DNA of 64,000 nt from a virus, in the IMG/VR virus record IMGVR_UViG_3300026521_000466, positions 100,798 to 164,797 of that record; one strand, written 5' to 3'. The notes under the pieces are model-generated. The model was not told the origin of the DNA. It searched no databases and saw nothing but the letters and a program-made list of their open reading frames with translations. The translations under genes were made by a program, and so were the position numbers. Of this stretch, positions 3,151 through 63,918 are shown piece after piece (the stretch's first letter is position 1; every line of letters starts with the position of its first letter).

Positions 3151-3190
3151 ACACCTAAAGCCCAATCCACTATAATAATATACAGATAAA
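3151..3190 (-). promoter_or_regulatory. Early-type phage promoter (TATATTAT) followed by TTAGGTG leader motif
   Basis: Minus strand reads GTATATTATTATAGTGG...CTTTAGGTGT; matches the repeated consensus in this window and resembles the phiKZ early TATATTAC element. Confidence 0.75.
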
Positions 3191-3244
3191 AAGAAATAGT
3201 AAAAGCACTACGCTATCGCCTGATGCTGGCGCTGCGTGCAATAA

Positions 3245-3407
3245 AAAAGATAATACCCTATAGGTACATACTGTGCGGGTCACTCCTAGGGTCGCGTCCC
3301 TTAGAGAGTTCCTACGGTCACTCTCTACCAGTATGATTGTATTTATATAATCCTCTCACTCAACCCCTCCTAGAAGGTTCCCCTTCTCTCTCTCCTTATA
3401 TTCACAT
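3245..3407 (-). ncRNA. Structured GGA-rich element, copy 1 (three-way junction)
   Basis: CATACTG/CAGTATG outer stem, TAGAGAGT/ACTCTCTA inner stem, two TCCTANGGTC loops, AGAAGG/CCTTCT hairpin; diverged copy near 62480-62635; strand inferred. Confidence 0.55.
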
Positions 3408-3444
3408 AATAGCAACCAAATAAAAAAATATAACAGAGAGGATA

Positions 3445-3960
3445 TTACTCCTCCCTGATGGTACTAAGCAGTGAGGAGTAATACTTAATATCCTCCTCTA
3501 CTGCATTAGCACCTGCATCATTATAGCCTCTTTTCTCTAGCATAGAAATCATGGCTATAATGATGCTTTCCCTAATGTCGTAATCAACATTAGGGTTTTC
3601 TATATCAAGTGGGGAGGCTTGATATACTACAGAGCCCTCTACTAACGAGGATTCACTCTCAATACCTGCTTCATTATACCCTGAGGTAATATGGCAGGCA
3701 TGTGCACCCACCCCATTTTTCAGCATCATGGCTGATCTAATGGTGCGGGTGTTAATGATGACAATGCTATGCTTGTCATCAATAGTAGCTATTGAAAAAT
3801 TATCAGGTGTCCCCATCGCTTGATAATTTCCTTTGGGATACGATAATACCAATGCTGGTTTGCCATCTACCCCACCTAGACTTAACCAACTGGCGGACTT
3901 GTCCATACCCGCCAGATGAATTTTGAAGTCATGCTTCAGAGCATTGTATGATTTTAACAC
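3445..3960 (-). CDS. Hypothetical protein
   Basis: 171 aa ORF with AGGAG RBS; terminator-like hairpin across its stop codon. Confidence 0.7.
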   Translation of the reverse strand: MLKSYNALKHDFKIHLAGMDKSASWLSLGGVDGKPALVLSYPKGNYQAMGTPDNFSIATIDDKHSIVIINTRTIRSAMMLKNGVGAHACHITSGYNEAGIESESSLVEGSVVYQASPLDIENPNVDYDIRESIIIAMISMLEKRGYNDAGANAVEEDIKYYSSLLSTIREE

Positions 3961-4187
3961 GTGATGCTCCTATGAAAATCAATCTGCATCTGAGAGAAGA
4001 ATCTCTCACTCTCTCTCAGATGCTCTTTAAAACAGAGGTTGTGATGGGCAGCGACAACCTCCCCTCGTTGCGGTTGGGAAATGTCGAGATTTCTCATCTC
4101 TTCCATCTCCCTCTCGACTTCTTCGAGTTTCTTGAAGAAGTCTTTCTCCGACGGAAATGGTCCATCGGTTAATGGTTTTAATGCCAT
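3954..4187 (-). CDS. Small hypothetical early protein
   Basis: Start moved to ATG 4187 (MALKPLT...), which follows AAGGAG and lies downstream of the promoter at about 4250. Confidence 0.65.
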   Translation of the reverse strand: MALKPLTDGPFPSEKDFFKKLEEVEREMEEMRNLDISQPQRGEVVAAHHNLCFKEHLRESERFFSQMQIDFHRSITC

Positions 4188-4228
4188 AATTATCTCCTTA
4201 CGATAATAAATAATTAGTATCATAGATA

Positions 4229-4263
4229 CACCTAAGCCTAAACCACTATAATAATATACAAAC
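4229..4263 (-). promoter_or_regulatory. Early-type promoter plus GGCTTAGGTGT leader motif
   Basis: Minus strand reads TTTGTATATTATTATAGTGGTTTAGGCTTAGGTGT. Confidence 0.8.
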
Positions 4264-4334
4264 ACTACGGCTTGCAATTTGATTTATTCTTTATAACTTA
4301 ATTATAGGATAAGAGAAATAATAAAGGGTGTGAT

Positions 4335-6086
4335 ATGAGTGATATATGTAAAGAGTTTAGGTTTGCTGTACACCTGCCTAATAGTGACGATGGCGATTAT
4401 CATTTAGTGAAATTCCTAAATCACTATCCTGATGGTAGACAAGAGCACTCTATAGAGTTAATAAAAGATTATAAAAGACCATTTTATGTAACTAAAAAGT
4501 TCTATAGAAATCATAAACAGAGGAAAGAAGCCGAGCATTTGAGTAGATTAGATAAGTTCATGTCTACAGAATCAGGATTAGCAAATAGCATATTTAAAGC
4601 ATTGGGGAAACCAAAATATAAGAAAGCAAAACTATACGAGGTAAGAAGAGATAGAGATAGTATCTATGTTTATGGTGCAGACATACCATCCACTACACTG
4701 CTCTCTATGGAGTATAAAAAGAAGTGTGATAAGATAACACCGTTTATCCCCGGTTTTCTCGATATTGAAAATGATGTAGATACAAAAGAGATATCCCTGA
4801 ATACATTCGTCTATACAGAAGATGGAATCGATAAGGTTTATACTTTTGTAAATAATAACCTTATTCCAAACCTGCCTGGATTGGAAGAGAGGATAATTAA
4901 TAAGTTATTAAAATCCTTACCTGATAAACTCCCATATGGACTAGATGTTGATAACTTAAAAATATCAATAACCAAGTGTAAAGATGAGAAAGAGTTAATA
5001 CAAAAATCATTTAGCAGAATACATCGCTCTGATATCGATATATTATCCGGATGGAACTTTGAATTTGATATCTCTACTATTGCAAAAAGATCTGTGGTAA
5101 ATGGATTAAGACCCGAAGATGTATTTTGTCATCCTGATATACCAAAAGAGCTCAGGTTCTTCGAGGTGATAGTAGGTAGGAGCGAGAAAGTGACTCAGGC
5201 AGGCAAGGTAACACCAGTACCGCCTGAAGAGAGGTGGCACGTAATGAAGAGTGCTGCTAAGTTCATAATGATGGATAGTATGTCACTCTATCGATATATT
5301 CGTTCACAAGATAAAAAGATACAAGGCGGGTATGGTTTAGATAACGTATTGGCAAAGTCTTTGAAGATAGGTAAACTTAAAACAGTTGATATTGAAGGTG
5401 TAACAAAATATGAGTGGCATAAAACCATGTCTAATAAACACCCTATTGATTACTCTGCATATAACATATGGGATTCACTAGGATTAAATTGTAAAAATAA
5501 AAAAGACCACGACCTAGATTACTCACTACCCCTATTGAGCGGACATACTACATTTTATAACTTTAACAGTAACCCCACTAAGATATATGAGGATATGTAT
5601 GAGTTCTATATGAAAGAGGATAAAGTACTGGCTATGTTTAAGAGTAAGGATGAGCAGGAGAGCAAATCTTTAGGCAGGGAATATTGGACAGTCACACTTA
5701 ACCTATGGAGAATAGATGAGAATTATAGCGTACCTATACTGGATGATGAGTATTATTTAAATACTACAGAGTTACAGGATAAGGCTGCGCAAATGGTAGC
5801 ATCACATTACAATACGCCAAGGCCATTAACTAAGACAAGAGCTTATATACTGGCCATGGACTTGGATGTTACCTCTGCTTATCCAACAGTTACTTATGTT
5901 TTGAATATCAGTAACGATACATGTGTAAGAGACCTATTTGATGTAGTGGGAGTAGAAAAAGAAACATTTAAACATGCCAATATTGATTTAATCACCGGTG
6001 TAATATCACATTTAGATTATGGTCATATTATGCATGAGTTACCTACATTGATAGAGGTGGATAGTATGATAGATGATTATTTATAA
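4335..6086 (+). CDS. Split B-family DNA polymerase, exonuclease plus motif A subunit (phiKZ gp82-like)
   Basis: ExoI LDIEND, ExoII GWNFEFDI, ExoIII YNIWDS, C-terminal PolB motif A DLDVTSAYP. Confidence 0.85.
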   Translation: MSDICKEFRFAVHLPNSDDGDYHLVKFLNHYPDGRQEHSIELIKDYKRPFYVTKKFYRNHKQRKEAEHLSRLDKFMSTESGLANSIFKALGKPKYKKAKLYEVRRDRDSIYVYGADIPSTTLLSMEYKKKCDKITPFIPGFLDIENDVDTKEISLNTFVYTEDGIDKVYTFVNNNLIPNLPGLEERIINKLLKSLPDKLPYGLDVDNLKISITKCKDEKELIQKSFSRIHRSDIDILSGWNFEFDISTIAKRSVVNGLRPEDVFCHPDIPKELRFFEVIVGRSEKVTQAGKVTPVPPEERWHVMKSAAKFIMMDSMSLYRYIRSQDKKIQGGYGLDNVLAKSLKIGKLKTVDIEGVTKYEWHKTMSNKHPIDYSAYNIWDSLGLNCKNKKDHDLDYSLPLLSGHTTFYNFNSNPTKIYEDMYEFYMKEDKVLAMFKSKDEQESKSLGREYWTVTLNLWRIDENYSVPILDDEYYLNTTELQDKAAQMVASHYNTPRPLTKTRAYILAMDLDVTSAYPTVTYVLNISNDTCVRDLFDVVGVEKETFKHANIDLITGVISHLDYGHIMHELPTLIEVDSMIDDYL

Positions 6087-6090
6087 TAAA

Positions 6091-6136: not shown

Positions 6137-6149
6137 TTTAATGCTGTCA

Positions 6150-8450: not shown

Positions 8451-8483
8451 ATTTAGTCCTTTCTATATTAGTTCATTTAATAA

Positions 8484-17418: not shown

Positions 17419-18861
17419 TTATCCTTTCAGTAGTTTCTCTTGTTGATATATTGCATTAGAGATTGTCATAGTGGTAATATCAGGCACAGCTACTTTTCCG
17501 AAAACTTCACCTGGAGATGACGCACAACTTAATGATGTATTATGCGGCTTAAATACACTAAACATATCTGCTAACTTCTTATCTAGTGGAAGCGCTATAT
17601 TAAGTTGGTCACCGTCAACATCGGCATTTGGTAAAGGCATAACCATTAAAGACATACTCAGAGTCTCATCATAAACATTCTCCTTCACATATGTGATACG
17701 TTGAAGTAGTTCGGATGCATTGTTCTGCGATGGATTTCGTTGCAATAGTGCAGGTATACCATCTCCGGATTCCTTTAAGAGTATTTGTATCACATCCCAT
17801 ATTACATCCACCTTTTTAATCTCAGCTTCAAACAGAAGATCGGTGATCTCATTATATGAATAGTTCATGCGATTATACATAATATTTATTATGTGTAAAC
17901 GTAATACTACAATAGCTATCTTCCACGGTATGTGAAGCTCATCTATCTCATGCTTTCCTACAATAGGAGTAAGTACAGCTCTAAATGAGAAGTGAGCTCT
18001 AAATCCATAGAGATTCTTTCTCCACAACCCACTCTTTGAAGAGAGTAAATCATTGGTTATTCCAAGGTCGGCGTTTGCTAGTAATGAAATGATACGACCT
18101 GTAATCTTTTCATTATACTCTTTTTTATTTAAGTCTTTATACCTAATGTAGAGCAGTGCAGTATTGACAACCTCTGTAAGATACCCTTGGATAAATTGGC
18201 CTTTATTTGTCTTCTCCTGGATTACAAACCTCCTGTTTGGAAGGGGGAGTCTATCAGATAGAATAGTCTCCTTATGATTTCTATAGACATCTATGAGCTT
18301 ATTTATCCTAAGTCTCTTTTTCTTATCCGTGGTTACAGATGCAATTACGGAGAGTATCTTTACAAGGTTCTGTTGGAAGTACGTATAACTTCTTTCTAAA
18401 CCAGTAATAGACTTTACTGCATTCATTACCCTGCTAGTCACTGCATTGAGACGAATGTTGTATCTCTTATTACTGAACCATGTGATAAGAGAGAAGTTCC
18501 CATTTTGCAGGCCCAGTGTTTTATCCATCAGCAATATATAATGCGGAGAGATAAACTGTGGCATATTTGGAAATTTCTGTAACCAAGCAAAAGGCATATA
18601 GTCAGTATAGGCCTCTCTAACCTCTGTATTGCACGATTTACAGACGACACCTATATCTGCATTCTTCACCAACTCTCCGCAGTAGCAGGACGCTACAAGA
18701 GAGATAACATCATCATTGATGGTAGTCTTGATCGCCTTCTCCAGTATCTCTCTATCTTTTTGACTATTGTAGTCAAGTTTGGCAATATCCAAAATAAGCG
18801 ATGGGTCTATTGTATTGTATAGACTATCAATATCTGTCATTACAGCCTGTAACGATTTCAT
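17419..18861 (-). CDS. Non-virion RNA polymerase beta-prime N-terminal catalytic subunit (phiKZ gp55-like)
   Basis: Zinc ribbon CYCG...CKSC, KSGLWRKNLYGFR, RAVLTP, QRNPS, catalytic NADVDGD. Confidence 0.9.
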   Translation of the reverse strand: MKSLQAVMTDIDSLYNTIDPSLILDIAKLDYNSQKDREILEKAIKTTINDDVISLVASCYCGELVKNADIGVVCKSCNTEVREAYTDYMPFAWLQKFPNMPQFISPHYILLMDKTLGLQNGNFSLITWFSNKRYNIRLNAVTSRVMNAVKSITGLERSYTYFQQNLVKILSVIASVTTDKKKRLRINKLIDVYRNHKETILSDRLPLPNRRFVIQEKTNKGQFIQGYLTEVVNTALLYIRYKDLNKKEYNEKITGRIISLLANADLGITNDLLSSKSGLWRKNLYGFRAHFSFRAVLTPIVGKHEIDELHIPWKIAIVVLRLHIINIMYNRMNYSYNEITDLLFEAEIKKVDVIWDVIQILLKESGDGIPALLQRNPSQNNASELLQRITYVKENVYDETLSMSLMVMPLPNADVDGDQLNIALPLDKKLADMFSVFKPHNTSLSCASSPGEVFGKVAVPDITTMTISNAIYQQEKLLKG

Positions 18862-21128: not shown

Positions 21129-22877
21129 TTACATAAAGTCGTCACCGAATCCGAATCCAGCTGTGCCGCTGAAGTCATCATCAATAAATCCACCAAATCC
21201 ATTATCGGAGAATCCGATGCTATCAAAGCTTGTAATGTCAGGCATTGCCAATCCACCACCCATATCTTCAACAGCAGGAATTTGTAGATTTATACCACAT
21301 TCACGAATTGCTCTAAATAGAGTCAATACGAATTCTGATGTTAAGAACACTCTCTCTTTTACGCCAGTGATTTTGATATCTGGCGATACCTTATTCATCA
21401 ATTTCAAGTAGAGATCCACTGAATTCATGGACTTGTCAAACAAACCATTGTCCAGCCTCATCTTGATGATTGCGTCTCTTACACCGAACTTTTTCAGTAC
21501 CATAAGGGTATCAATTTCATCCAGTGATCTTTCGCCTCGTCTGCCGTCTTTGAAATAGCCTGTAGGCATTGTAATAGACTGTCTTCCAAATATCTTTCTC
21601 TCCGGGAAGTTCAATGGAAATTTCCCATTCGTGAACTCATGAGCGCCTTTAACCAACTCTTTTAGATAAGGCTTGTTTGGATCTCCCTTACCGAATGCTT
21701 CTTTAGATGCTCTTAGTAGAGTAGTAAAGTGTACAGACTGAGACATAAATTTCGTTATGTCAAATGCTAACAATGGTGCGCCCTCTGCAAGATTAGATAG
21801 TAGATCCAATCTGTCTTCATATGGAATGGACTCATCAGCCAGGTTGATCTTCTTAGGTTCTTCATTACCAAGTGAATTTATGATCAGTTCCAGCTCGCCC
21901 GGGTTCTTGCCTGGTACACCCGCATTAGCCAATGCAATCTCCTTCCATCGTCCTTGTGCGGTGGCCGCTCCAGCAGCTGCAATGGTCATCAGTGTTGTCC
22001 CCAATGATGTTATAAACGCATCTTCCAATGCATTAACCACCATTACTGGGTGAGCTACAATCTTACCAGTTGCTTTCATTGCACGAGAAATCTTTGCATC
22101 AGCATGTGTTCTAATAGAAGCATTTCTACTAGACCCTGCCAAAAATTGGATGTTTCCGACTATTTTTCCAATTTGTACCGCTGTACCTTCATGATTTATT
22201 TCGTCGGAACCATCACCATCAATAGCTGTCATTGTGATTGAATACTCTACAAATTGCGGCATTCCATTTATAACATAGCCATCGTTTGCATTTATAATAG
22301 TAGGGTATGCCTTAATAGTTCTTGCATGCGCCAATAATTCACCGTATTGAGCTTCGGACCAACCGTTTTCATATTTAGCAGATACACTATTTATGAAGTT
22401 TGCCGCCAATGAACCATAGAATCGCACATTATTATCATCTGAAAGATCCACATTGGACCAGATGATATTTCCATCAATAGAGACCACTTTTATATCAGCG
22501 CCATATTTCTCTTTCAGGATAGTTGTTATTGCTTTACCTGCCCTAACGTTTAATGCGTTCGATGGAATAATTGGGGCACGTACGCCTCTATCAATCAATT
22601 CACTGTACTCTCTCGGCATGATTGCTTCTTTGTTTGTACATGCATAAACAAACAAGAAGTTTACAACTACATTGCCAACTTTTTTTGCCAAGATAGCTAT
22701 GTTATACGACAGATCATACTGTCCTTTTTCCAACGAAATCACAGTGATCTCTGAAAAAGCAGGTGTTTCTGCAAAGTAACTCTGGAGTTTATGGTTGAAT
22801 TCCTCAACCTCCGGATGTCTACCCTCGTTGGGGTCTACGAATGCTCGTTTTAAATCTGATAGGCTTTTTACTGCCAT
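21129..22877 (-). CDS. chmA: Probable chimallin (phage nuclear shell protein, phiKZ gp54-like)
   Basis: 582 aa, own early promoter, strong RBS and terminator, Gly/Phe/Asp-rich C-terminal tail, located next to DNAP and nvRNAP beta-prime N genes. Assignment rests on context and overall resemblance, not on a diagnostic motif. Confidence 0.65.
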   Translation of the reverse strand: MAVKSLSDLKRAFVDPNEGRHPEVEEFNHKLQSYFAETPAFSEITVISLEKGQYDLSYNIAILAKKVGNVVVNFLFVYACTNKEAIMPREYSELIDRGVRAPIIPSNALNVRAGKAITTILKEKYGADIKVVSIDGNIIWSNVDLSDDNNVRFYGSLAANFINSVSAKYENGWSEAQYGELLAHARTIKAYPTIINANDGYVINGMPQFVEYSITMTAIDGDGSDEINHEGTAVQIGKIVGNIQFLAGSSRNASIRTHADAKISRAMKATGKIVAHPVMVVNALEDAFITSLGTTLMTIAAAGAATAQGRWKEIALANAGVPGKNPGELELIINSLGNEEPKKINLADESIPYEDRLDLLSNLAEGAPLLAFDITKFMSQSVHFTTLLRASKEAFGKGDPNKPYLKELVKGAHEFTNGKFPLNFPERKIFGRQSITMPTGYFKDGRRGERSLDEIDTLMVLKKFGVRDAIIKMRLDNGLFDKSMNSVDLYLKLMNKVSPDIKITGVKERVFLTSEFVLTLFRAIRECGINLQIPAVEDMGGGLAMPDITSFDSIGFSDNGFGGFIDDDFSGTAGFGFGDDFM

Positions 22878-22906: not shown

Positions 22907-22990
22907 GCTACCTAAGTAGCGCCTCATTCCAGCCGGCCGTGATGAGGTGTTATCCTACATCACTGTAATAATATACGTTTAAAAAAAAAC
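22907..22990 (-). promoter_or_regulatory. Early promoter and structured 5' UTR of the chimallin-like gene
   Basis: GTATATTATTACAGTG at 22961-22976; leader hairpins CACCTCAT/ATGAGGCG and GCTAC-TTAG-GTAGC. Confidence 0.7.
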
Positions 22991-32825: not shown

Positions 32826-32879
32826 ATAGCTATTAAAGCACCTAAACCTAACCACTATAATAATATACAAAAGAAAAAA
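32826..32879 (-). promoter_or_regulatory. Early-type promoter plus leader motif
   Basis: Minus strand reads TTTTTTCTTTTGTATATTATTATAGTGGTTAGGTTTAGGTGCTTTAATAGCTAT. Confidence 0.8.
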
Positions 32880-32906
32880 CGTACCCTAGACCGTAGTCTA
32901 GGATAG

Positions 32907-33449
32907 TTAGTATCGCTCATATACATTATAGATAAGTTGTGCTTTATCCATACTTCCATAGTCACGTATCTTTTCACATGCAGTTGACGCATCCACAGCA
33001 AGCTCTTTCAAAAGTCTGGTTGAGCTGTAAGTCACAGCTTCTCCTGCCTTATAATGCGGTCTCAATACTTTATCCATAATCTGCGCAGACCTTAATAGAT
33101 TCCAACAAGATGCTTTAACTTCGCCATACAACCAAGATCTTTTACCATCATACATTTTAAGATATTGATCCCAATAAAGAACTCGCCTAGCCTTTGCTTT
33201 AAATGATCTTGATCTAGGAGTGTCTCTATAACCACACTCTATCATTACATTCTTTGCCGCATCCAAATCATTAGGGATAAATCTGGGATACCCAACCTTA
33301 TATGCAGCACCGTAAAACTTGTTCAGTTTTAACAGTGCATCCAATTCGTAAATAGCTGCTGCGCAACTATCAATATTAGCACTTAATGCACTAGCGAATA
33401 TTGCCATAATAAGAATAATCTTTTTCACTTCTTCTCCTTTATTCTTCAT
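32907..33449 (-). CDS. Secreted/periplasmic hypothetical protein
   Basis: Signal peptide (V)KKIILIMAIFASALSA after AAGGAG; two cysteine pairs; CTTAGGTGT leader motif at 33467-33475. Confidence 0.7.
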   Translation of the reverse strand: MKNKGEEVKKIILIMAIFASALSANIDSCAAAIYELDALLKLNKFYGAAYKVGYPRFIPNDLDAAKNVMIECGYRDTPRSRSFKAKARRVLYWDQYLKMYDGKRSWLYGEVKASCWNLLRSAQIMDKVLRPHYKAGEAVTYSSTRLLKELAVDASTACEKIRDYGSMDKAQLIYNVYERY

Positions 33450-33529
33450 AATTAATGTCTATTGACACACCTAAGTATACTCTACATAATAATCATATAT
33501 AAAAGAAAAAACTTGCTAGGGTCAATACC

Positions 33530-33895
33530 CTAGCAAGCATTCATAAGTTTATAATTTCTTATCTCCCTAAACATCAAAGCACTATCAAACTTTTGATCAT
33601 ACATCCCTATTACATCAATAGGATTGGTCAATACCGGTGTATAATCTAATTTCATCTCCTGTAAGTGAAAGTCCAATATGCGCTTAGTGTCATCTTTTTC
33701 TTGGTCCCCATAAATGGTTAAAGAAACAGGTATTTTTACCGATCCCTTATATATGCCTAACAGATATACATCTATCCTGTTTTGTGTTATGGATATTGTA
33801 TTATGTCCTGCAATTATGCGAACCTCCGTCTCCTCCGATGTTTTATTATGTATAATTTTCAATACTCTGTTTATGTAGTTATTTTTTAAAACCAC
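33530..33895 (-). CDS. Hypothetical protein
   Basis: 121 aa ORF with AAGGA RBS. Confidence 0.6.
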   Translation of the reverse strand: MVLKNNYINRVLKIIHNKTSEETEVRIIAGHNTISITQNRIDVYLLGIYKGSVKIPVSLTIYGDQEKDDTKRILDFHLQEMKLDYTPVLTNPIDVIGMYDQKFDSALMFREIRNYKLMNAC

Positions 33896-40644: not shown

Positions 40645-40675
40645 ACCTAATTAATAATATACAAAAGAAAAAAAG
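40645..40675 (-). promoter_or_regulatory. Early-type promoter with TTAGGT directly downstream
   Basis: Minus strand reads TTTTTTTCTTTTGTATATTATTAATTAGGT. Confidence 0.75.
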
Positions 40676-42622: not shown

Positions 42623-42664
42623 GTTGTTCCTTTATTTATTTTAGTCAGATAAGAAATTTTAAAA

Positions 42665-42803
42665 AATAAAAAAATGACACCATCCTGGACGGGGATATCC
42701 AGGAGGCATGCATTGATAGATAAATCTCGTGAGCATACCATATTTTGGCTTAGGTGTCTTGTAGCTATGTAAAAGGAGGAAAATAACTACTGGTATGCTC
42801 ATA
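42665..42803 (-). ncRNA. Candidate ~130 nt small RNA antisense to the early-leader motif and Shine-Dalgarno
   Basis: TATATATTATT promoter at 42806-42816; 11-bp stem 42730-42740/42791-42801 enclosing UUCCUCCUUUUACAUAGCUACAAGACACCUAAGCC; TCCTGGA/TCCAGGA hairpin and U tract at about 42661-42705. Confidence 0.7.
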
Positions 42804-42828
42804 TCAATAATATATAATTAAAAATTTA

Positions 42829-45800
42829 TCATTGGCAACCTGAACAGGTAACAAAGTCATCCTGTGTCAATTCATCTATCTCTTCCGGGGATTTGCCTCT
42901 TGCATAGTAAATGCTTGATACACCTAAGTGTCTTGCATAATGATAGAGAATTCCCAAATCTCTTGTTGAGTTACTAATACCTGTATCTGGGAATAGGTTT
43001 CCGGATGGTGCTTGGTCAATCCATTGCTGCACCACAGCTAGGTTTTGAATAACTTTCATCTGATCTATCTCATATGCTGATTTATAGAACTTGATAGTGT
43101 TGATATTCAGGTCAGGTACCACTGATCTAAATTCACCAACGCTGGTCTTATCAGTATATACTCTTTTAAAGATAGGTTCTATGGACGGAGTAGTATTCGT
43201 GATAACAGCAATATTTGTAGTTGGAGCCACTGCCATAACATAAAGGTTTCTCATGCCTTTACTGGTTTTCTCTCTCAGTTGGTCCCAATCCATACTCCAT
43301 GGTCTATCCACTATCTTCTTGATATTCTCATTGGCAAAATCTACAGGCAATACTCCTTTTTCCCATTCACTGCCTTTGAATCCTGGGGCGACTCCTTTTT
43401 CAACAGCTAGATCGGCTGATGCCTGATATGCATAATAAGATACCCACTCCATAATCTGGTCAATACGTTGAAGTGCCTCTTTTGAACCAAACTCAAGTCC
43501 CTCTTTGGCAAGTAGATGATGCTCGCCCATAACACCAAGACCGATAGCTCTTGTCTTCATTGCATGTCTGAATGCACCGCCAACAGGATAGTAATTTATA
43601 TCGATGATATTATCGAGTGCTCTGATCATAATAGGTACAACTCTCTTAATATCCTCTTCAGTGTTTATCTTGGATATATTTAAAGAAGCAAGAGTACAGA
43701 CGAATATTTCATCATCTTCTATTTTATTCTCTGTGTACCCAATATTCACTCCTTTATAGAAATCATTTGGGGCCAGTTTGCTATATGGCCTTCCACTCTC
43801 TGATATATCACTGCCAAGCTCTTTACCTAAAAGTTTACCTTCCCTGTCATAAACGTATGTATAGAGCTCTCCTGCTTTCGCATACTGGCTTATTTCACAA
43901 CAGAGATTAGAACTATAGATAGTTCCGAGGTGTTTATTCATATGCCTCCTGTTCATCTCATCTTTATCAACGCAGTAAGGCTCACCGGATGTCAATGCTA
44001 TAGACATAATGCTGGTATAGAGATCAGCTGCTTTCACCACCTCTTTACTAATGGAACTTGAACGTTCATAATGTTCATACCTCTCTTTGAATTCATCTCC
44101 ATAGAGATCCAACAGATCGGTAACATCATGCGGATCAAACAGCGTCCATGTTTCATTGTTTCTAACTCTCTCCATGAAGAGTTTGTTCTCCCACATAGCA
44201 ATATTCATATCGTATGCTCTACGTCTTACATCACCTGTAGGTTTATGTAGCTCCAAGAACTCTTTAAAATCTTTGTTCCATGGCTCAAGATAGACTGCTA
44301 TTGCACCCTTTCTTGTATTGTGGGTTAGAAGATATCTATCTTTTCCTTCGTCTACACCAACATGCACGAAATAGTTATTATTATGTTCGATTGTATAGTC
44401 CACAAACACCTCATCACTATCACCACCTACTGTAAATATAACTTTCTCTTCACCAAGATTGGATATTGTAACTTCACCTTCTACCACCTCGTCAGCTCGC
44501 TTATATACAATATTACTATTCTCAACAATCGGAGTAGGATGCCATGCACTGGTAGTATAAGAACCAAGTGTCGTTGTGATTTCAGTTTGTGCTAGGGAAG
44601 GTACTCTTACGGTATGTTTAGAGACTAACTTCCTTACCTCTTTTTTACCAGTCTCATTGTTTAAAGACAACGCTAACATACCAGGTTCAATTTCAGAATG
44701 GTATAGAGGAATATATGTAATTGCACTTTCAATATCATCCATTGCATTTACAATATTGATAAGTTCTTCAATAGTTGGTTTATCTGCATTGTTGATATCT
44801 ATTTTCTCTGTTACTATAGTGAGATTTTTTAGATTGACATTATGGGTATTATTGTCTTTATGATAAACAAGTCCCTTTTCATATCCGAGATAAGTCAATG
44901 CCATAACTGTAGCAATGTAATACTTTTTCTCATCAATGCTTGCAGTCAATACTTTACCGCCTTTTGATAGTTTAGCAGGTACTGTTGCAAGAGTATATCT
45001 ATTTATCATAAGTCCAAACTCATTGATCATATAGTCTTCTAGTCCTTTAACTTTTATATCCGTAAACCCTTTTGGAAGATATCTACCATTAATTGCATTT
45101 GCTAACTCAGGAACATCCGCATCTATGGATCTGCCACATAGATATTTTTCTATCTTAAGCATCTTTTCATTATAATTTTCATCATTTTCATCAAGGATTT
45201 CACTTACTATATCAGATACGTAGTTATCTCTAGCATCGCTATATTTGACATAATATTTTTCTTCCCGCACATTGTATGTCACGCCATCAACTGTGATAGT
45301 ATCAATAATAGCAATACGACTATTACTAGAGACACACCCCAACTGGTCAAACTCTAACTGAATAGCATTCGTTGTAACTGCCAATGGAACAACACCGCCT
45401 GATGCTCCCGGTATACCATCAACTACAGAACCGTCAGTCCTGACAAAACCATCTGACCAACCGATGCCACCACCGAATTTACTAAGTATAGCCATTACAG
45501 TTCTTGAGTGCATGATTCCCTCTGCACTATCATGTGTTACACCGCCATAACAGCTATTCAGCTGACATCTGATACTTCTGGCATTTGCCAGCGTCGGAGT
45601 ACTGTGCATAAAGTTAAACTGAGATACTTCACTATAGTGTTGTTCTGCATAGTGTTCTTTAAGTCCGTCTGGTTCATTCTGCATTAAAACCATTGCTACC
45701 GACATAAAGACGAACTGTGGTAACTCAAAAGGCTCTTCGTTCACAGATTTAATATATCTCTGTCTAAATGTATAAGCACCTACATAACTGAACTGATCAT

Positions 45801-46203
45801 CTCTGTCATGTTTAATAGCTTTTGCCAATCTATCAAGGTCATAGCTCAAAAGAACTTTATCAAAGATGCCGTGTTCAACCCCATACTCTATATACTTTCT
45901 AAACGAAAGACCACCCAATGTTTTAGTAACTTGATGTCTAAGATCATAAAGAAACAATCTCCCTGCTAATACTGCATTGTCAACTGCATCAATATCAATA
46001 TCCAAAACAATGATCATAATCAGTGTTTGATGTATCTGCTCCGTAGTCATACCATCTTTGATATTCTCCATGAACTTTTTCATTATTGATGTCTTATCGA
46101 CATTTAGTTCATTAGAAGCATACTCTAAGAAACCATAGATTTTGTCTATGTTAAATGGTTCTACTCTACCATCCCTCTTTATTACATTGATTTTCTCTTT
46201 CAA
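42829..46203 (-). CDS. nrdA: Ribonucleotide reductase class Ia alpha subunit with intein
   Basis: ATP cone VIKRDG, STPTLANA, LNSCY, SKFGGGIG, RKGAIAVYLEPW, SSNLCCEI, CTLASLN, APT, YY.R, C-terminal CSGC; TTG start. Confidence 0.95.
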   Translation of the reverse strand: MKEKINVIKRDGRVEPFNIDKIYGFLEYASNELNVDKTSIMKKFMENIKDGMTTEQIHQTLIMIIVLDIDIDAVDNAVLAGRLFLYDLRHQVTKTLGGLSFRKYIEYGVEHGIFDKVLLSYDLDRLAKAIKHDRDDQFSYVGAYTFRQRYIKSVNEEPFELPQFVFMSVAMVLMQNEPDGLKEHYAEQHYSEVSQFNFMHSTPTLANARSIRCQLNSCYGGVTHDSAEGIMHSRTVMAILSKFGGGIGWSDGFVRTDGSVVDGIPGASGGVVPLAVTTNAIQLEFDQLGCVSSNSRIAIIDTITVDGVTYNVREEKYYVKYSDARDNYVSDIVSEILDENDENYNEKMLKIEKYLCGRSIDADVPELANAINGRYLPKGFTDIKVKGLEDYMINEFGLMINRYTLATVPAKLSKGGKVLTASIDEKKYYIATVMALTYLGYEKGLVYHKDNNTHNVNLKNLTIVTEKIDINNADKPTIEELINIVNAMDDIESAITYIPLYHSEIEPGMLALSLNNETGKKEVRKLVSKHTVRVPSLAQTEITTTLGSYTTSAWHPTPIVENSNIVYKRADEVVEGEVTISNLGEEKVIFTVGGDSDEVFVDYTIEHNNNYFVHVGVDEGKDRYLLTHNTRKGAIAVYLEPWNKDFKEFLELHKPTGDVRRRAYDMNIAMWENKLFMERVRNNETWTLFDPHDVTDLLDLYGDEFKERYEHYERSSSISKEVVKAADLYTSIMSIALTSGEPYCVDKDEMNRRHMNKHLGTIYSSNLCCEISQYAKAGELYTYVYDREGKLLGKELGSDISESGRPYSKLAPNDFYKGVNIGYTENKIEDDEIFVCTLASLNISKINTEEDIKRVVPIMIRALDNIIDINYYPVGGAFRHAMKTRAIGLGVMGEHHLLAKEGLEFGSKEALQRIDQIMEWVSYYAYQASADLAVEKGVAPGFKGSEWEKGVLPVDFANENIKKIVDRPWSMDWDQLREKTSKGMRNLYVMAVAPTTNIAVITNTTPSIEPIFKRVYTDKTSVGEFRSVVPDLNINTIKFYKSAYEIDQMKVIQNLAVVQQWIDQAPSGNLFPDTGISNSTRDLGILYHYARHLGVSSIYYARGKSPEEIDELTQDDFVTCSGCQ
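44317..45336 (-). mobile_element. Intein (340 aa) in NrdA with NUMOD4/HNH-like insert
   Basis: DQLG|CVSSNS...TTSAWHP...FVDYTIEHNNNYFV...LLTHN|TRKGA; removing it restores DQLGTRKGA; insert contains YHKDNNTHNVNLKNL. Confidence 0.9.
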
Positions 46204-50784: not shown

Positions 50785-50837
50785 TAGCTTTACAGCACCT
50801 AAGCGTATCCATTATAATAATATATAAAAGAAAAAAA
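50785..50837 (-). promoter_or_regulatory. Early-type promoter plus leader motif
   Basis: Minus strand reads TTTTTTTCTTTTATATATTATTATAATGGATACGCTTAGGTGCTGTAAAGCTA. Confidence 0.8.
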
Positions 50838-50853
50838 CCCTCTCAGGCATTAT

Positions 50854-53963: not shown

Positions 53964-54006
53964 ACACCTAAGTAGTGTCTATTATAATAATATACAAAAG
54001 AAAAAA
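53964..54006 (-). promoter_or_regulatory. Early-type promoter plus leader motif
   Basis: Minus strand reads TTTTTTCTTTTGTATATTATTATAATAGACACTACTTAGGTGT. Confidence 0.8.
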
Positions 54007-54020
54007 CTTATAAGAGGGAG

Positions 54021-54539
54021 TTACTTCTCCCTCCTCATCGCTTTTAAAACTTCTTCTTCCGAGGCTCCCAAAAATTTTAAAAGAGAGAACCTAGTATTTA
54101 TAGTCTTTTTAATTATATCAAAAGGTTCAATCTCCCTAATATTAAAATCAAGAATATCACTTATTTTAATATCGTTCTTTAACTCCTTTATTGAATTTTT
54201 GCCCGGACTTTGAAGTAGGTCTATATATTCAGACTCACTACATCTACGCTTAAACTTTTTATACTCCTTAGCATTCATATCCAATGCCATACAATTAAAA
54301 TCACGGCATATGTTTGGTCTATGATCATAAATACTACACATACCATCATCCATCATCATAGGGCATATGATTCTATTATTCTGAAACGAATCAATCATAA
54401 CATACTCTACATCGCCTACTGTAGAGTGCGCCATTGGAACATCCACCTTTGCATCCCTAAATCTTTTGATATCTTCAAGCACCAATTCAACAGGTTGTAG
54501 ACAACAACCTTTTAACGTGCACTTATCACATGTAAACAT
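54021..54539 (-). CDS. YkgJ-family (CxxCxxxxCC) cysteine-cluster protein
   Basis: FTCDKCTLKGCC ... CPMM..DG.CSIYDHRPNICRDF. Confidence 0.82.
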   Translation of the reverse strand: MFTCDKCTLKGCCLQPVELVLEDIKRFRDAKVDVPMAHSTVGDVEYVMIDSFQNNRIICPMMMDDGMCSIYDHRPNICRDFNCMALDMNAKEYKKFKRRCSESEYIDLLQSPGKNSIKELKNDIKISDILDFNIREIEPFDIIKKTINTRFSLLKFLGASEEEVLKAMRREK

Positions 54540-54582: not shown

Positions 54583-54620
54583 AAAAAAAGATACAGAACC
54601 CTCACTAGAGAGTCCTGTAT
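54583..54620 (-). terminator. Terminator closing the ncRNA/tRNA unit
   Basis: Minus strand reads ATACAGGACTCTC-TAGT-GAGGGTTCTGTAT-CTTTTTTT. Confidence 0.75.
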
Positions 54621-54650
54621 GTATTGTCCATGGGTAGAGATAAATCTCTG

Positions 54651-55553: not shown

Positions 55554-55639
55554 CTTCTTTGTGTTTTACATATCTCTCCCTATGGCGAGTAGATATAACC
55601 ATTTTAAGTATTGGAACTAAACATACCTACATATGTTCA

Positions 55640-55662
55640 CATTAATAATATACAAATAAAAA
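55640..55662 (-). promoter_or_regulatory. Early-type promoter heading the ncRNA/tRNA unit
   Basis: Minus strand reads TTTTTATTTGTATATTATTAATG. Confidence 0.7.
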
Positions 55663-55679
55663 TATTTGTAAATTAAAAC

Positions 55680-60412: not shown

Positions 60413-61078
60413 TTAAACTAAAGACCTGGCATAGAATCCAGCAAAATCCATGTCAAAAATATCTTCATTAGCTGAACCCGAAACAACTTTAGCCATAGAT
60501 ACCAATACCCTATCATCTATATCATTATCAACGGACACCACCACGTGAGGTATTACTAGATTGTATAGATAGTTATATATCTCCTTTTTACAGATGGTTT
60601 CGATGCCTGCCGCTCCCACTGACCCTTCTCTATTTCTCACTACTTCATACTCTACAGTGTAGTGACCCTCATCCTTTTCACCAATGGTTATCCTAGCTAA
60701 TTTGGACATATTGAGAAGACTGTTGAAATCGATATTCTTGAAATCTCCCTCATCTATTCTGGAAAAATAATCATCTGCAATGCGGTAGTTTAGTAACTCT
60801 ATCACTTTCAATATGGCTTTATAAACAGTCATGTCTACTTCTACCATACTTGTATTCTTCACAGACACGCTATAAATATTATTTTCAAACTTCACAGTAT
60901 ACATAGAGGAGGTCACATTATACTTTTTGGAAACAGCAGATACATTTATTGTGTCATATGTCGGCCTCATACCCGTATGGTGTTCTTCTTGCTCTACACT
61001 GGTCATAAACCTATACTCTTTATACTCCTCACCACCTACCTCTTTATTCAACTCACTCAGAAACATATACATGATCAC
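60413..61078 (-). CDS. Hypothetical protein
   Basis: AAGGAG RBS. Confidence 0.7.
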   Translation of the reverse strand: MIMYMFLSELNKEVGGEEYKEYRFMTSVEQEEHHTGMRPTYDTINVSAVSKKYNVTSSMYTVKFENNIYSVSVKNTSMVEVDMTVYKAILKVIELLNYRIADDYFSRIDEGDFKNIDFNSLLNMSKLARITIGEKDEGHYTVEYEVVRNREGSVGAAGIETICKKEIYNYLYNLVIPHVVVSVDNDIDDRVLVSMAKVVSGSANEDIFDMDFAGFYARSLV

Positions 61079-61563
61079 TCCTTCTCATTTATTTTTGCCA
61101 TTAGCGCATATCTGTTTACTTTAGACAATTCACTCATTAGATCATCAAGTACTATTTTAGACGCATGATCTGTTGAATCTAGCAATTGCCTACCAAACTT
61201 TATAATAAGTTTATCAGCCTCCTTTTGAGGAGTAAGAGTGTACAACTCTTGCAATAGGCGATGAACCAACTTAATATCAGCATTGTAATACATCGCAATG
61301 CCCAACTCCATCAAATCACCATCCAACTGATTAATCAATATTTCAGCACCTTTAAGATCATGATGTTTTATCAATAATACCAATGCTGCCAATTCATCTA
61401 TTGTTGTTATCTTTATATTATCACTATTGGATATGAAGGATTTTATATCCAATGTATATGCAGAAAGATTATTCAGTATGCTTGTGGCCATAATTGATTT
61501 TTTCATTCCAGTCACGCCATATTCCCTATCAGAAGGTAGTTTAACACCATCTAAATATTCCAT
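61075..61563 (-). CDS. Hypothetical protein
   Basis: 162 aa ORF. Confidence 0.7.
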   Translation of the reverse strand: MEYLDGVKLPSDREYGVTGMKKSIMATSILNNLSAYTLDIKSFISNSDNIKITTIDELAALVLLIKHHDLKGAEILINQLDGDLMELGIAMYYNADIKLVHRLLQELYTLTPQKEADKLIIKFGRQLLDSTDHASKIVLDDLMSELSKVNRYALMAKINEKE

Positions 61564-61583
61564 TGTTCGCCCCTTACCATCAC

Positions 61584-61865
61584 TTATCTTTTCTCACTTC
61601 TATTGAAAATACTCTTTAGGAACTCCTCTGTGATCATTCCTTTCTGATAATCATATATAGGTATTGTTTTACCGTTATAGAAAAGAGCCTCGGTCCATGT
61701 CACCTTTCCATTTTCATAAAGGTAAATCATCGCTCCGGTATGCTCGTTAAATATATCATCCGCATCAAACCCAACGATCCATCCGTGCTCACGCAACTCT
61801 CTGATCAAATTAACCAAATCTCTTTTATTATACCCTGCATCTATCACCACTACCTGATTCATCAT
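61584..61865 (-). CDS. Hypothetical early protein
   Basis: AAGGAG RBS downstream of the promoter at about 61889-61923. Confidence 0.7.
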   Translation of the reverse strand: MMNQVVVIDAGYNKRDLVNLIRELREHGWIVGFDADDIFNEHTGAMIYLYENGKVTWTEALFYNGKTIPIYDYQKGMITEEFLKSIFNRSEKR

Positions 61866-61888
61866 TCACTCCTTCTTTTTTATTAGTA

Positions 61889-61923
61889 CACCTAACCAGT
61901 GTCTACAGTAATAATATACAAAT
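61889..61923 (-). promoter_or_regulatory. Early-type promoter plus leader motif
   Basis: Minus strand reads TTTGTATATTATTACTGTAGACACTGGTTAGGTGT. Confidence 0.75.
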
Positions 61924-61931
61924 CAACTATT

Positions 61932-62249
61932 TCACCCACCCACTCTATACAGACTAGACAAGCTGACCTCCCTCATCTCTTTTACTATCTTAAATGTCAT
62001 AGCACAATACTTATCAACCACTTTACTCTCCACTACCTCTATCCCCGTATCTCCACAAGCCAAAAGAAATCTCTCATGCACATAGAGTAAACACCATAAA
62101 CTATGAAATTCATCAGGTATATCTCCTATGTTCATCTTCACCACAGCATTACACTCCACAGACATCAACACCTCCATCACACTATCTACATAATTATCTA
62201 TCTTCTCCCTACACACGTCACTCGTATTATTCATAGGCATATAGACCAT
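61932..62249 (-). CDS. Hypothetical protein
   Basis: GAGGAG RBS. Confidence 0.6.
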   Translation of the reverse strand: MVYMPMNNTSDVCREKIDNYVDSVMEVLMSVECNAVVKMNIGDIPDEFHSLWCLLYVHERFLLACGDTGIEVVESKVVDKYCAMTFKIVKEMREVSLSSLYRVGG

Positions 62250-62464
62250 CTTATCTCTCCTCTCTCTCTAAAAATTATTTGTTACTCTATCTAACTAACT
62301 CATATTCAAATACCCGTAAAAAGAAAAAAGAAGCAAAAAAGAAAATCTCTCCCCATACAGAGGAGAAGATATTAAAAAAGAGAAAATACTCATTATATCA
62401 ATATAAGAGATACCATGGTGTGCTGCACTCCCGTGAGAGACTCACGTTACGCACACCCAAAGAA

Positions 62465-62635
62465 AAAAGGGATACCACTACACTGTAGCCAATAGGTACA
62501 TACTGCCGGCATACTCCTAAGGTCGTATACCTAGAGAGTTCCTACGGTCACTCTCTACAGTATGTCTGTATTAATAGACTCTCATCATCCCCTCTCCCTA
62601 GAAGGGTTCTCCCCTTCTTCTCTCATGACTTCATA
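62465..62635 (-). ncRNA. Structured GGA-rich element, copy 2
   Basis: Same architecture as copy 1; identical TAGAGAGTTCCTACGGTCACTCTCTA core; strand inferred. Confidence 0.55.
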
Positions 62636-62694
62636 TAAATACTATTGAAATAAAAAAATATATAGAGAATAAAAGAGGAGAGAGGTAGGTAGTA

Positions 62695-63054
62695 TTACCT
62701 ACGTTTTCCTGTGCCAGGTGCACCACCCTGATACACTCCAGGTCTCTTAGAGACCTTTATCTTCTTTGTGAAGACCTCTCTCTTTAACTTAGCCAATCTG
62801 GCTTCCTCTTTCCATTCATCACGGTCTCCCCTCTCCCATGATTTACTTACCCCTTCAGCTCTTCTTTTGTTGAGATCTTTCAATCTCTCGAACTTGAGAG
62901 ATGCTCTAGTGATTAGAGCTGCATCCTCATCACTAAGATCTTTGTCGTTATATACAAAGATGACCATTTTTACAAATGCTCTCTCTGACCTATTTATCTT
63001 AGAGATAGATTTCTCTAAGAATAACTCCACTTGTGATCTTTCGTGCTCGTTCAT
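62695..63054 (-). CDS. Basic hypothetical protein
   Basis: C-terminal VYQGGAPGTGKRR; AAGGAG RBS; early promoter at 63099-63126. Confidence 0.7.
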   Translation of the reverse strand: MNEHERSQVELFLEKSISKINRSERAFVKMVIFVYNDKDLSDEDAALITRASLKFERLKDLNKRRAEGVSKSWERGDRDEWKEEARLAKLKREVFTKKIKVSKRPGVYQGGAPGTGKRR

Positions 63055-63083
63055 TTCAACTCCTTTTATTATATATAACTAAT

Positions 63084-63126
63084 GACACTAAGCTTAAACC
63101 ACTATAATAATATACAAAAGAAAAAA
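63084..63126 (-). promoter_or_regulatory. Early-type promoter plus variant leader motif (GCTTAG-TGTC)
   Basis: Minus strand reads TTTTTTCTTTTGTATATTATTATAGTGGTTTAAGCTTAGTGTC. Confidence 0.75.
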
Positions 63127-63655
63127 ACCTCGTTCGCACGGGGAGTTTGCCTCGCGCACGCGCGCGCGTATAATAAGTACTGGTTCATCTTTTTACTTGC
63201 TAATTTTTTAACTCTCTTTTTTTAAATACTTTTTTACCCGAGAGATTTGTAGAGACGTAGTTCTACTACGAAGTCTCTACAAATTTATCTCTCTATTTTT
63301 CATACCTTTTTTGGATTATGTATTTAATGAACGAGTGAAAACGAGTGAATTAAATAGATAATCTTTTTTGGTCTATAAATATAACAACTTTTGGGGGAAA
63401 GGGGGTTAATTTTAGGAGGAGAGATGGGGTCTGGGGAAGAGAGGAACCCTTTTATCAGGGGGAAAGGGAAAAACAAAAAAAAGAAATAGACTAGGGACTT
63501 AATCTTAATCTGTAATGAGTGCAAACCCATACTGCACAATGAACTCATCCCTTTTAAGAGAAAGTATATTCTTATACTCCATATACCATGCCGTTATCTC
63601 TTTACTAATCATTGTTCTACTCCATTAATCTTATTTTTAGATCTGTATATATACT

Positions 63656-63853
63656 CTACATCTCATCGACTGTATTTCGATGTAGTCTATCTTCTATTGA
63701 GGATACCTCAGCAAGAACATCCTTTGCCCTCTGTAAAAACGCCGTTCTTAGCGGCCTATTGCTCTTATGCATGTCTGCTGACTCTGCAAGGTATTTCATT
63801 TCCTCTAACAGCAATAATATTTTTGCAATTTCTTGTTTAGTATTCATGATCAC
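63656..63853 (-). CDS. Small hypothetical early protein
   Basis: AAAGGAG RBS downstream of the promoter. Confidence 0.6.
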   Translation of the reverse strand: MIMNTKQEIAKILLLLEEMKYLAESADMHKSNRPLRTAFLQRAKDVLAEVSSIEDRLHRNTVDEM

Positions 63854-63877
63854 TCCTTTATCTTAATTAATACCGAT

Positions 63878-63918
63878 GACACTAGCCTAATCCATGTTAA
63901 TAATATACAAAAGAAAAA
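63878..63918 (-). promoter_or_regulatory. Early-type promoter plus variant leader motif (GGCTAG-TGTC)
   Basis: Minus strand reads TTTTTTCTTTTGTATATTATTAACATGGATTAGGCTAGTGTC. Confidence 0.7.

What the first reader, a model, noticed from the sequence alone, without database searches (positions are those of the whole stretch)
3151..63918. Conserved (C)UUAGGUG motif in the 5' leaders downstream of early promoters
Seen: about 17 copies of TTTTCTTTTGTATATTATTA-type promoters occur, nearly all on the minus strand. About 11 are followed by TTAGGT(G) or a close variant (3152, 4229, 22910, 32839, 33468, 40645, 50796, 53965, 61889, variants at 63084 and 63878), while others lack it (18891, 26140, 26540, 54570). 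In several leaders UUAG sits in a hairpin loop with different stems: GCUAC-UUAG-GUAGC (chmA), ACAC-UACUUAG-GUGU, ACAC-UGGUUAG-GUGU, UAUAC-UUAG-GUGUG. Spacing from the promoter varies from ~3 to ~50 nt, which suggests an RNA-level element and not a promoter element. Inference: a shared cis-element read by the sRNA above, by a protein, or used as an mRNA export or stability signal.
Basis: partly seen in the sequence, partly recalled or inferred. Interest (0 to 1): 0.75.

Follow-up and report, generated by a model that had tools for sequence, protein, structure and literature searches.

The report
Shared 5' tag on early mRNAs
About ten of the 27 predicted early transcripts of this uncultured nucleus-forming-type phage carry the same short RNA tag (UUAGGUG) 9-12 bases from their predicted 5' end, and a small RNA gene of the same phage displays its exact complement, so the tag most likely lets one RNA control a set of early accessory genes together; this is inferred from sequence only.

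Summary
The motif is real and far above chance. TTAGGTG occurs 21 times on both strands of the 164.8-kb genome, and 8 copies lie within 35 nt downstream of the 27 early-type promoters (expected 0.04). All 27 promoters are on the minus strand. In the 8 exact copies and 3 degenerate ones the box starts 12-15 nt after the TATATTATTA core. By analogy with AR9 and phiKZ promoters, that is RNA position +9 to +12. The 40645 copy straddles the start site. The chmA copy is a separate hairpin-loop variant at +47.

The box is a primary-sequence element with no shared fold. It sits in 39-57-nt leaders, mostly in front of ORFan genes. Box-less leaders are either very short or begin with a 5'-terminal hairpin. 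Relatives (DNA polymerase 36-49% identical) keep the promoter but not the box.

The best reading is an RNA tag paired by the phage small RNA at 42660-42800. That RNA exposes an 11-nt perfect complement plus an anti-Shine-Dalgarno loop. Rivals are a ribosome-binding mini-ORF or 5' stabiliser, a protein site, and a cassette relic. No covariation test was possible. The scan has noted similar tag/anti-tag pairs in other jumbo phages.

The parts
61889..61932 (-). Early promoter (core 61909-61918, predicted TSS 61904) with box TTAGGTG at 61889-61895 (RNA +10)
   Evidence: the box sits partly in an ACAC/GUGU hairpin
53965..54008 (-). Early promoter (core 53985-53994, TSS 53980) with box at 53965-53971 (RNA +10)
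50796..50838 (-). Early promoter (core 50815-50824, TSS 50810) with box at 50796-50802 (RNA +9), followed by a 3-bp hairpin with a GUAA loop
33468..33513 (-). Early promoter (core 33490-33499, TSS 33485) with box at 33468-33474 (RNA +12), then a UGUC/GACA hairpin
32839..32881 (-). Early promoter (core 32858-32867, TSS 32853) with box at 32839-32845 (RNA +9). This leader aligns with the antisense of the small RNA over 33 nt.
4229..4272 (-). Early promoter (core 4249-4258, TSS 4244) with box at 4229-4235 (RNA +10). It is the best predicted partner of the small RNA (duplex -22 kcal/mol).
3152..3196 (-). Early promoter (core 3173-3182, TSS 3168) with box at 3152-3158 (RNA +11)
63080..63128 (-). 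Early promoter (core 63105-63114, TSS 63100) with a degenerate box (UUAGUGUC, one G missing)
63875..63921 (-). Early promoter (core 63898-63907, TSS 63893) with a degenerate box (CUAGUGUC)
55620..55666 (-). Early promoter of the tRNA/ncRNA unit (core 55643-55652, TSS 55638) with a weak box variant GUAGGUA in a hairpin loop. It is not a predicted partner of the small RNA.
22909..22989 (-). chmA promoter (core 22966-22975, TSS 22961). The leader begins with a hairpin at +1.
40645..40675 (-). Early promoter (core 40652-40661, TSS 40647). The TTAGGT here overlaps the start site and is not a leader box.
42660..42828 (-). Small RNA gene: weak early-type promoter (core 42805-42814, PWM 16.4), TSS 42800, 10-bp closing stem, hairpin with an anti-SD loop (42769-42782), internal loop with the anti-box ACACCUAAGCC (42747-42757), and a terminator hairpin with a T-run ending near 42660

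Best explanation
UUAGGUG is a lineage-specific RNA tag in the first 20 nt of about ten early transcripts made by the phage's virion RNA polymerase. Eight copies are exact and two have lost one base. The tagged genes are mostly ORFan accessory genes, plus a GroEL-like gene.

The tag, together with 2-8 flanking nt, is the pairing site for the phage's own roughly 130-nt small RNA (42660-42800, minus strand). That RNA holds the exact complement in a 20-nt open internal loop and a CCUCC anti-Shine-Dalgarno sequence in a hairpin loop. The tag would supply specificity and the anti-SD loop would supply the effect on translation, so one RNA would regulate a set of unlinked early mRNAs.

Shown by sequence and computation: the enrichment, the fixed position, the complementarity and the accessibility. 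Inferred: the start sites, the expression of the small RNA, the pairing in vivo, and the direction of control. Repression or shut-off is the more likely direction. Protection of the 5' end by duplex formation is the alternative.
For: - Enrichment and position: 8 of the 21 genomic copies lie within 35 nt after promoter cores (P about 4e-17), always at RNA +9 to +12.
- Start site: the AR9 early consensus is TATATTAT-(6N)-G+1, and phiKZ and phiR1-37 also start 6 nt downstream (PMC5312081). The same rule lands on the most conserved G here. In four orthologous chmA leaders a hairpin with different stems begins exactly at that G.
- Selection on the 7-mer: it is invariant in at least four unrelated upstream contexts, while the sequence after it diverges.
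- The small RNA: its promoter falls in the same score class as the others (16.4, with nothing between 12 and 14). It folds at -40.2 kcal/mol (z -5.2) and has a terminator. The anti-box costs only 0.6 kcal/mol to open.
- Predicted pairing: duplexes with 10 leaders are -13.6 to -22 kcal/mol, against -6.4 or weaker for the other 16. After accessibility correction, 9 box leaders are at -8.1 or lower. None of 129 control 5'UTRs is below -7.4.
- Uniqueness of the anti-SD word: T[TC]CCTCCT occurs only once on the sense strand of the genome.
Against: - No relative carries the box, and the small RNA locus could not be recovered in relatives, so there is no covariation test.
- The antisense of the small RNA is homologous to a leader module. 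The complementarity may therefore come from an inverted duplication and not from selection for pairing.
- The energy tests are partly circular, because the RNA contains the complement of the consensus.
- Plain co-folding hardly separates box leaders from box-less ones: mean -8.6 against -7.1.
- The small RNA has an early-type promoter, which is odd for a shut-off factor.
- The GUG of the box opens a 2-7-codon mini-ORF in all 8 leaders, which points to ribosomes as a reader.
- There are no expression data.
Confidence: 0.45

Rival explanations
1. The box is a 5'-proximal ribosome-binding element. AGGUG pairs with the CACCU part of the 16S 3' end, and the GUG starts a 2-7-codon mini-ORF. A ribosome parked near the 5' end would protect the mRNA from 5'-end-dependent decay or act as a standby site. 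This would resemble STAB-SD and ribosome-stall 5' stabilisers of Firmicutes.
For: - In all 8 leaders the GUG frame reaches a stop after 1-6 further codons. Other frames have a median of 7.5 and box-less leaders 8 (P about 7e-4, or about 0.02 if paralogous leaders are merged).
- In the 7 short box-less leaders the true SD occupies the same distance from the 5' end (+13 to +20).
- Long box-less leaders instead carry 5'-terminal hairpins. This suggests three alternative ways of covering the 5' end.
- In four leaders an upstream (U)AGG lies 5-6 nt before the GUG.
- STAB-SD and related stabilisers are established (references listed in PMC3997798).
Against: - Only 5 of the 7 invariant bases can pair with the anti-SD. 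The invariant UUA is unexplained.
- True SDs in this phage are AAGGAG-type, so varied SD-like words would be expected here, not one 7-mer.
- The host and its RNases are unknown.
- The stop-codon result is post hoc, and the leaders are not independent.
Confidence: 0.2
2. The box is the site of a sequence-specific protein. One form is an RNA-binding factor for processing, nut/put-like antitermination, or handling by a nucleus-associated protein. The other form is a DNA operator at +9 to +18 that blocks early transcription.
For: - The 7-mer is invariant and always in the same orientation.
- In six leaders it is preceded by a similar half-site (UUAGG-N-UUAGG).
- In six leaders it is directly followed by a 3-5-bp hairpin, a box-plus-hairpin layout.
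- Most early promoters are flanked by terminators, which read-through control would act on.
- ChmC of chimalliviruses binds phage mRNAs near start codons (PMC11077065).
Against: - No candidate protein was identified.
- ChmC shows no sequence motif.
- The tandem half-site and the adjacent hairpin are not present in all copies.
- This reading does not explain why an exposed exact complement sits in a structured RNA gene.
Confidence: 0.15
3. The box has no function of its own. It is a remnant of repeated duplication of promoter-leader cassettes in front of accessory genes, as with the PeSL cassettes of T4-type phages. The small RNA region would then be an inverted relic of one such cassette.
For: - Six leaders share the whole +1 to +16 module and others fall into pairs.
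- Box promoters mostly precede ORFans.
- Promoters are fused to terminator hairpins as in PeSLs (PMC2839356).
- The box is absent from relatives.
Against: - The 7-mer is perfectly kept (56 of 56 positions) in at least four different upstream contexts, while neighbouring positions vary and the downstream sequence is unrelated.
- The position is fixed.
- The inverted copy is framed by a 10-bp closing stem, has its own promoter and terminator, and folds far better than shuffles (z -5.2).
Confidence: 0.12
4. The box is a downstream promoter or initially-transcribed element read by the virion RNA polymerase, setting promoter strength or promoter escape.
For: - It lies close to the promoter with only 4 nt of positional jitter.
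- The promoter consensus does extend to the start site (nnGT-G).
Against: - It is absent from 16 of 27 promoters, including some of the best-scoring, and shows no relation to promoter score.
- It is absent from relatives with the same promoter.
- It is not part of the AR9 or phiKZ early consensus.
- Jitter of 4 nt is unusual for a polymerase contact.
Confidence: 0.06

Closest known systems
c4 antisense RNA of phages P1/P7 and its target sites in the icd-ant leader (also the P4 CI RNA with seqA/seqC, from memory)
   Same: A small phage-encoded RNA pairs through short exposed segments with matching short boxes in the leader of phage transcripts, including the ribosome-binding region, and so blocks expression (PMC8198154; the details of two-site pairing are from my own knowledge).
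   Different: c4 and CI act on one operon of a temperate phage, for immunity. Here about ten unlinked early transcripts of a lytic, chimallin-encoding phage share the box, and the box lies at the extreme 5' end, 20-40 nt from the SD. There is no sequence or Rfam relation.
STAB-SD and ribosome-stall 5' stabilisers of Bacillus (cryIIIA, ermC, SP82 polypurine element)
   Same: An SD-like word near the 5' end of a long leader, away from the real start codon. Short leaders would be covered by the initiating ribosome itself (references in PMC3997798; PMC5737220 abstract).
   Different: The box is one invariant 7-mer with only 5 nt of anti-SD complementarity, and it contains a GUG with a mini-ORF. 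The host is unknown and stabilisation is untested.
AR9/phiKZ-type early promoters of the virion RNA polymerase
   Same: The promoters in front of the box share the TATATTAT core, the conserved start 6 nt downstream and an upstream T/A-rich tract. The phage encodes split beta/beta' subunits.
   Different: No conserved element downstream of +1 has been reported for AR9, phiKZ or 201phi2-1, whose motif searches used -50 to -1/+1. The box is an addition specific to this phage.
PeSL cassettes of T4-type phages
   Same: Repeated terminator-stem-loop plus early-promoter modules flank small ORFan genes (PMC2839356).
   Different: PeSLs use host sigma-70-type promoters and have no described conserved leader box or matching antisense RNA.
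Leader-tag/anti-tag RNAs noted by this scan in other uncultured jumbo phages (unchecked AI notes, e.g. e1-5392721, e1-5649890)
   Same: A private short tag on many early-gene leaders, with its exact complement in exposed loops of a small phage RNA.
   Different: Those tags are described as part of the ribosome-binding site, and covariation between lineages is claimed. Here the tag is at the 5' end, separate from a canonical SD. The RNA has one anti-tag plus one anti-SD, and no covariation could be tested.

Membership tests
phiKZ/AR9-type virion-RNAP early promoter (for the promoters) | Extended AT-rich conserved core containing TATATTAT | tested here: met
   27 sites with core TATATTATTA, of which 5 differ from it at one base, and a T-rich tract at -12 to -2. 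AR9 consensus from PMC5312081.
phiKZ/AR9-type virion-RNAP early promoter (for the promoters) | Conserved start nucleotide 6 nt downstream of the core | tested here: inconclusive
   A conserved G (1.37 bits) lies exactly 6 nt after TATATTAT, and chmA hairpins start there in 4 phages. No transcript 5' ends are available.
phiKZ/AR9-type virion-RNAP early promoter (for the promoters) | The phage encodes split multisubunit RNA polymerase subunits | tested here: met
   phrog_2987 at 4e-86 (17419-18861) and phrog_3295 at 4e-112 (genome 80428-82509).
Promoter element (is the box part of the promoter?) | Present in all or most promoters of the class and conserved in phages that share the promoter | tested here: not met
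   The box is absent from 16 of 27 promoters and from all 18 promoter-like sites (PWM score 11 or more) in loci L001-L007 of the relatives.
Antisense-RNA target box (P1 c4 / P4 CI type) | The exact complement is present in an exposed part of a small RNA encoded by the same phage | tested here: met
   An 11-nt perfect complement sits in a 20-nt internal loop with an opening cost of 0.6 kcal/mol.
Antisense-RNA target box (P1 c4 / P4 CI type) | The boxes lie in accessible leader regions of the regulated transcripts | tested here: met
   Boxes are at +9 to +18, with mean unpaired probability 0.29-0.69 in the seven leaders where the scored box is the +9 to +12 copy. Net energies are -7.3 to -16.6 kcal/mol.
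Antisense-RNA target box (P1 c4 / P4 CI type) | Box and anti-box co-vary between related phages | tested here: inconclusive
   Relatives lack the box. The nrdA-nrdB locus was not found in relatives. Pattern scans gave only chance hits.
Antisense-RNA target box (P1 c4 / P4 CI type) | The small RNA is expressed and changes target expression | not testable with these tools
   Only a promoter-like site and a terminator are predicted.
STAB-SD / 5' stabiliser | A leader sequence complementary to the 3' end of 16S rRNA, away from the start codon | tested here: inconclusive
   Only AGGUG (5 nt) is complementary to the canonical anti-SD. The host 16S is unknown. The location fits: it is 5'-proximal and 20-40 nt upstream of the real SD.
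STAB-SD / 5' stabiliser | Increases the half-life of the downstream mRNA | not testable with these tools
   No expression system or data.
Any Rfam family | Match to a curated covariance model | tested here: not met
   Only a tRNA hit in the window at gathering score. Nothing meaningful at E<=1 around the small RNA.

The most novel reading that the evidence does not exclude
A lytic, chimallin-encoding phage runs a post-transcriptional regulon of its own. A private 5' tag marks a subset of early accessory mRNAs. A single phage small RNA, built from an inverted copy of such a leader, reads the tag with one loop and blocks the Shine-Dalgarno with another. This switches those genes off (or protects them) as a group. 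Different lineages would evolve different private tags: the relatives show another shared 5' motif.
Probability: 0.35. Interest if true: 0.8.

Novelty: new variant of a known kind. Interest (0 to 1): 0.6.

Why it matters
How nucleus-forming and related giant phages time and shut off their early genes after the virion polymerase has fired is largely unknown. Published transcriptome studies looked only upstream of start sites for motifs.

A short, position-fixed 5' tag shared by about ten early mRNAs, together with a matching small RNA, would be a simple and testable post-transcriptional switch. It would also suggest that sRNA regulons with private target tags exist in lytic phages.

The tag also gives a practical handle, in the form of reporter fusions and compensatory mutations. 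It marks which ORFan early genes are co-regulated.

Tried and rejected
- **Close relatives by DNA.** An exact 22-nt promoter word in IMG/VR gave 0 hits. The promoter-plus-box pattern gave 50 single hits in IMG/VR and at least 118 in metagenomes. None had a proper promoter context or a second promoter, so all are chance.
- **Relatives by protein.**
  - The chimallin-like protein has no relative in IMG/VR, in the phage collection or in the 5.8-billion-protein set.
  - The DNA polymerase gave relatives at 36-49% identity. Their loci (L001-L007) keep the promoter but have no box.
  - NrdB homologues come from unrelated contigs, so the small RNA locus of relatives was not reached.
- **Consensus fold.** A consensus fold of the four chmA leaders failed on the alignment. 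Single folds were used instead.
- **Co-folding.** Plain co-folding of the small RNA with whole leaders discriminates poorly, because it cannot model loop-to-strand pairing inside a closed stem. It was replaced by duplex energy plus opening costs.
- **Shared hairpin.** The idea of one hairpin that presents UUAG was rejected as a general rule, because contexts differ.
- **Universal export signal.** Rejected as stated, because 16 of 27 early leaders lack the box.
- **Promoter strength.** No relation was seen between the box and the promoter score.
Full report
**Setting.** The window is the last 64 kb of a single 164,797-bp contig with 35% G+C.
- It encodes a chimallin-like protein (21129-22877, phrog_4795, 1e-13), a divergent family-B DNA polymerase, split RNA polymerase subunits and ribonucleotide reductase.
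- No isolate is close. The best DNA polymerase match among sequenced phages is 29%. The chimallin-like protein has no relative in any set searched.
- This is therefore an orphan, uncultured phage of the phiKZ/AR9 transcription type.

**The promoters.** A weight matrix built from 22 clear copies finds 27 sites in the genome. All are on the minus strand and all score 14.1 or more, with nothing else above 12. Seventeen lie in the window.
- The consensus is a T-tract (-12 to -2), then G, then TATATTATTA, then nnGT, then G. That last G is as conserved as the core (1.37 bits).
- AR9 early promoters read TATATTAT-(6N)-G+1, and phiKZ and phiR1-37 also start 6 nt after their core (PMC5312081). The same rule puts the start at this G.
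- Independent support comes from the chmA leaders of this phage and of three relatives. In each, a hairpin with a different stem begins exactly at that G.
- The start sites remain inferred.

**The observation.**
- TTAGGTG occurs 21 times on both strands of the genome. Eight copies lie within 35 nt after a promoter core, against 0.04 expected (P about 4e-17). One more is the plus-strand image of the small RNA. The other 12 are in coding sequence.
- The box starts at RNA +9 to +12 in all eight.
- Two leaders (63114 and 63907) carry a copy lacking one G. Leader 55652 has GUAGGUA.
- The 40645 copy overlaps the start site. The chmA copy (TTAGGTA) is at +47 in a hairpin loop, and a paralogous leader exists at genome 14298.
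- The motif and its enrichment are therefore confirmed. The stated 3-50-nt spacing is not.

**Context.**
- Box leaders are 39-57 nt long.
- Seven box-less leaders are only 22-30 nt long, with the real SD at +13 to +20.
- The other box-less leaders start with a hairpin at +1 to +4.
- There is no common fold. In six leaders the last G of the box opens a 3-5-bp hairpin and UUAGG is single-stranded. In two leaders, UUAG lies in a 7-nt loop.
- The 7-mer is invariant in at least four unrelated upstream contexts, and the sequence after it is unrelated.
- First genes behind box promoters are seven ORFans and a GroEL-like gene. Box-less promoters drive RNA polymerase subunits, a helicase, a polymerase-like gene and chmA.

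**Relatives.** Metagenomic contigs with DNA polymerase 36-49% identical keep the promoter, but none of their leaders has the box. L001, L002 and L006 share a different motif at +1. Pattern scans for promoter plus box found only chance hits. The box is lineage-specific, and covariation cannot be tested.

**The matching small RNA.** The gap between the two ribonucleotide reductase genes has three features.
- It holds a weak promoter of the same class (score 16.4).
- It encodes an RNA that folds at -40.2 kcal/mol (z -5.2).
- It ends in a terminator.

A 10-bp closing stem frames two elements:
- a hairpin whose 14-nt loop carries CCUCC, a word that occurs once on the sense strand of the genome;
- a 20-nt open loop with ACACCUAAGCC, the perfect complement of the extended box.

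Pairing predictions:

| Measure | Box or variant leaders | Comparison |
|---|---|---|
| Duplex energy | -13.6 to -22 kcal/mol (10 leaders) | -6.4 or weaker (the other 16 leaders) |
| With opening costs | -8.1 or lower (9 leaders) | never below -7.4 (129 control 5'UTRs) |

The anti-SD loop pairs with nearly every ribosome-binding site, at -6 to -7.5 kcal/mol. Specificity would therefore come from the box.

The antisense of this RNA aligns with leader 32867 over 33 nt (score 26, against a null maximum of 25 in 3000 trials). It probably arose as an inverted leader copy. That weakens the argument from complementarity alone.

**Rival signal.** The GUG of the box is followed by an in-frame stop after 1-6 codons in all eight leaders, far sooner than in other frames. 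AGGUG is SD-like. A ribosome-binding mini-ORF or 5' stabiliser is therefore a serious alternative. It could also be the primary function that the small RNA masks.

**Verdict.** The element is real, position-fixed and at the RNA level. Its most likely reader is the phage's own small RNA (0.45). The closest analogues are the c4 and CI antisense systems of P1 and P4, and STAB-SD-type stabilisers. No Rfam family matches. Unchecked notes of this scan describe similar tag/anti-tag pairs in other jumbo phages. I treat these as leads only.

Noticed in passing
window 63921-63960, 54591-54625, 54008-54045, 33513-33545, 32881-32915 and others (minus strand): At least 12 of the 27 early promoters sit directly behind a strong, non-repeated hairpin whose T-run is the promoter's own T-tract. 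These look like fused terminator-promoter cassettes, PeSL-like.
   Followed up: partly
window 22941-22961 (-); L003:8051-8065; L005:7439-7452; L007:3428-3442: The chmA mRNA begins with a hairpin exactly at the predicted +1. It has an AUAAC-type loop, and the stems differ between phages. This is a conserved 5'-terminal hairpin.
   Followed up: partly
L001:1689, 5691, 6844; L002:5509; L006:2641: Relatives share another motif at +1 of early leaders (GUAWUUGAAUURC). It is not a stable hairpin and may be their own leader tag.
   Followed up: partly
L007:6913-9060: The DNA polymerase of one relative translates only with TGA read as W, which hints at a host or phage with an altered genetic code.
   Followed up: no
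window 42829-46203 (-): The 1124-aa ribonucleotide reductase large subunit carries an HNH endonuclease stretch at residues about 383-472 between RNR segments. It may be an intein or a homing insert.
   Followed up: no
window 3048-3116 (-): The first ORF with an SD behind promoter 3182 is only about 21 codons long. The next is 55 codons.
   Followed up: no
genome 14298 (outside the window) and window 22975: Two promoter-leader cassettes are paralogous: same cagtGATGT start, a 5' hairpin, and a second hairpin with a CUUAGG loop at about +45.
   Followed up: no
whole genome: All 27 early-type promoters are on the minus strand, although about a quarter of the genes are on the plus strand.
   Followed up: partly
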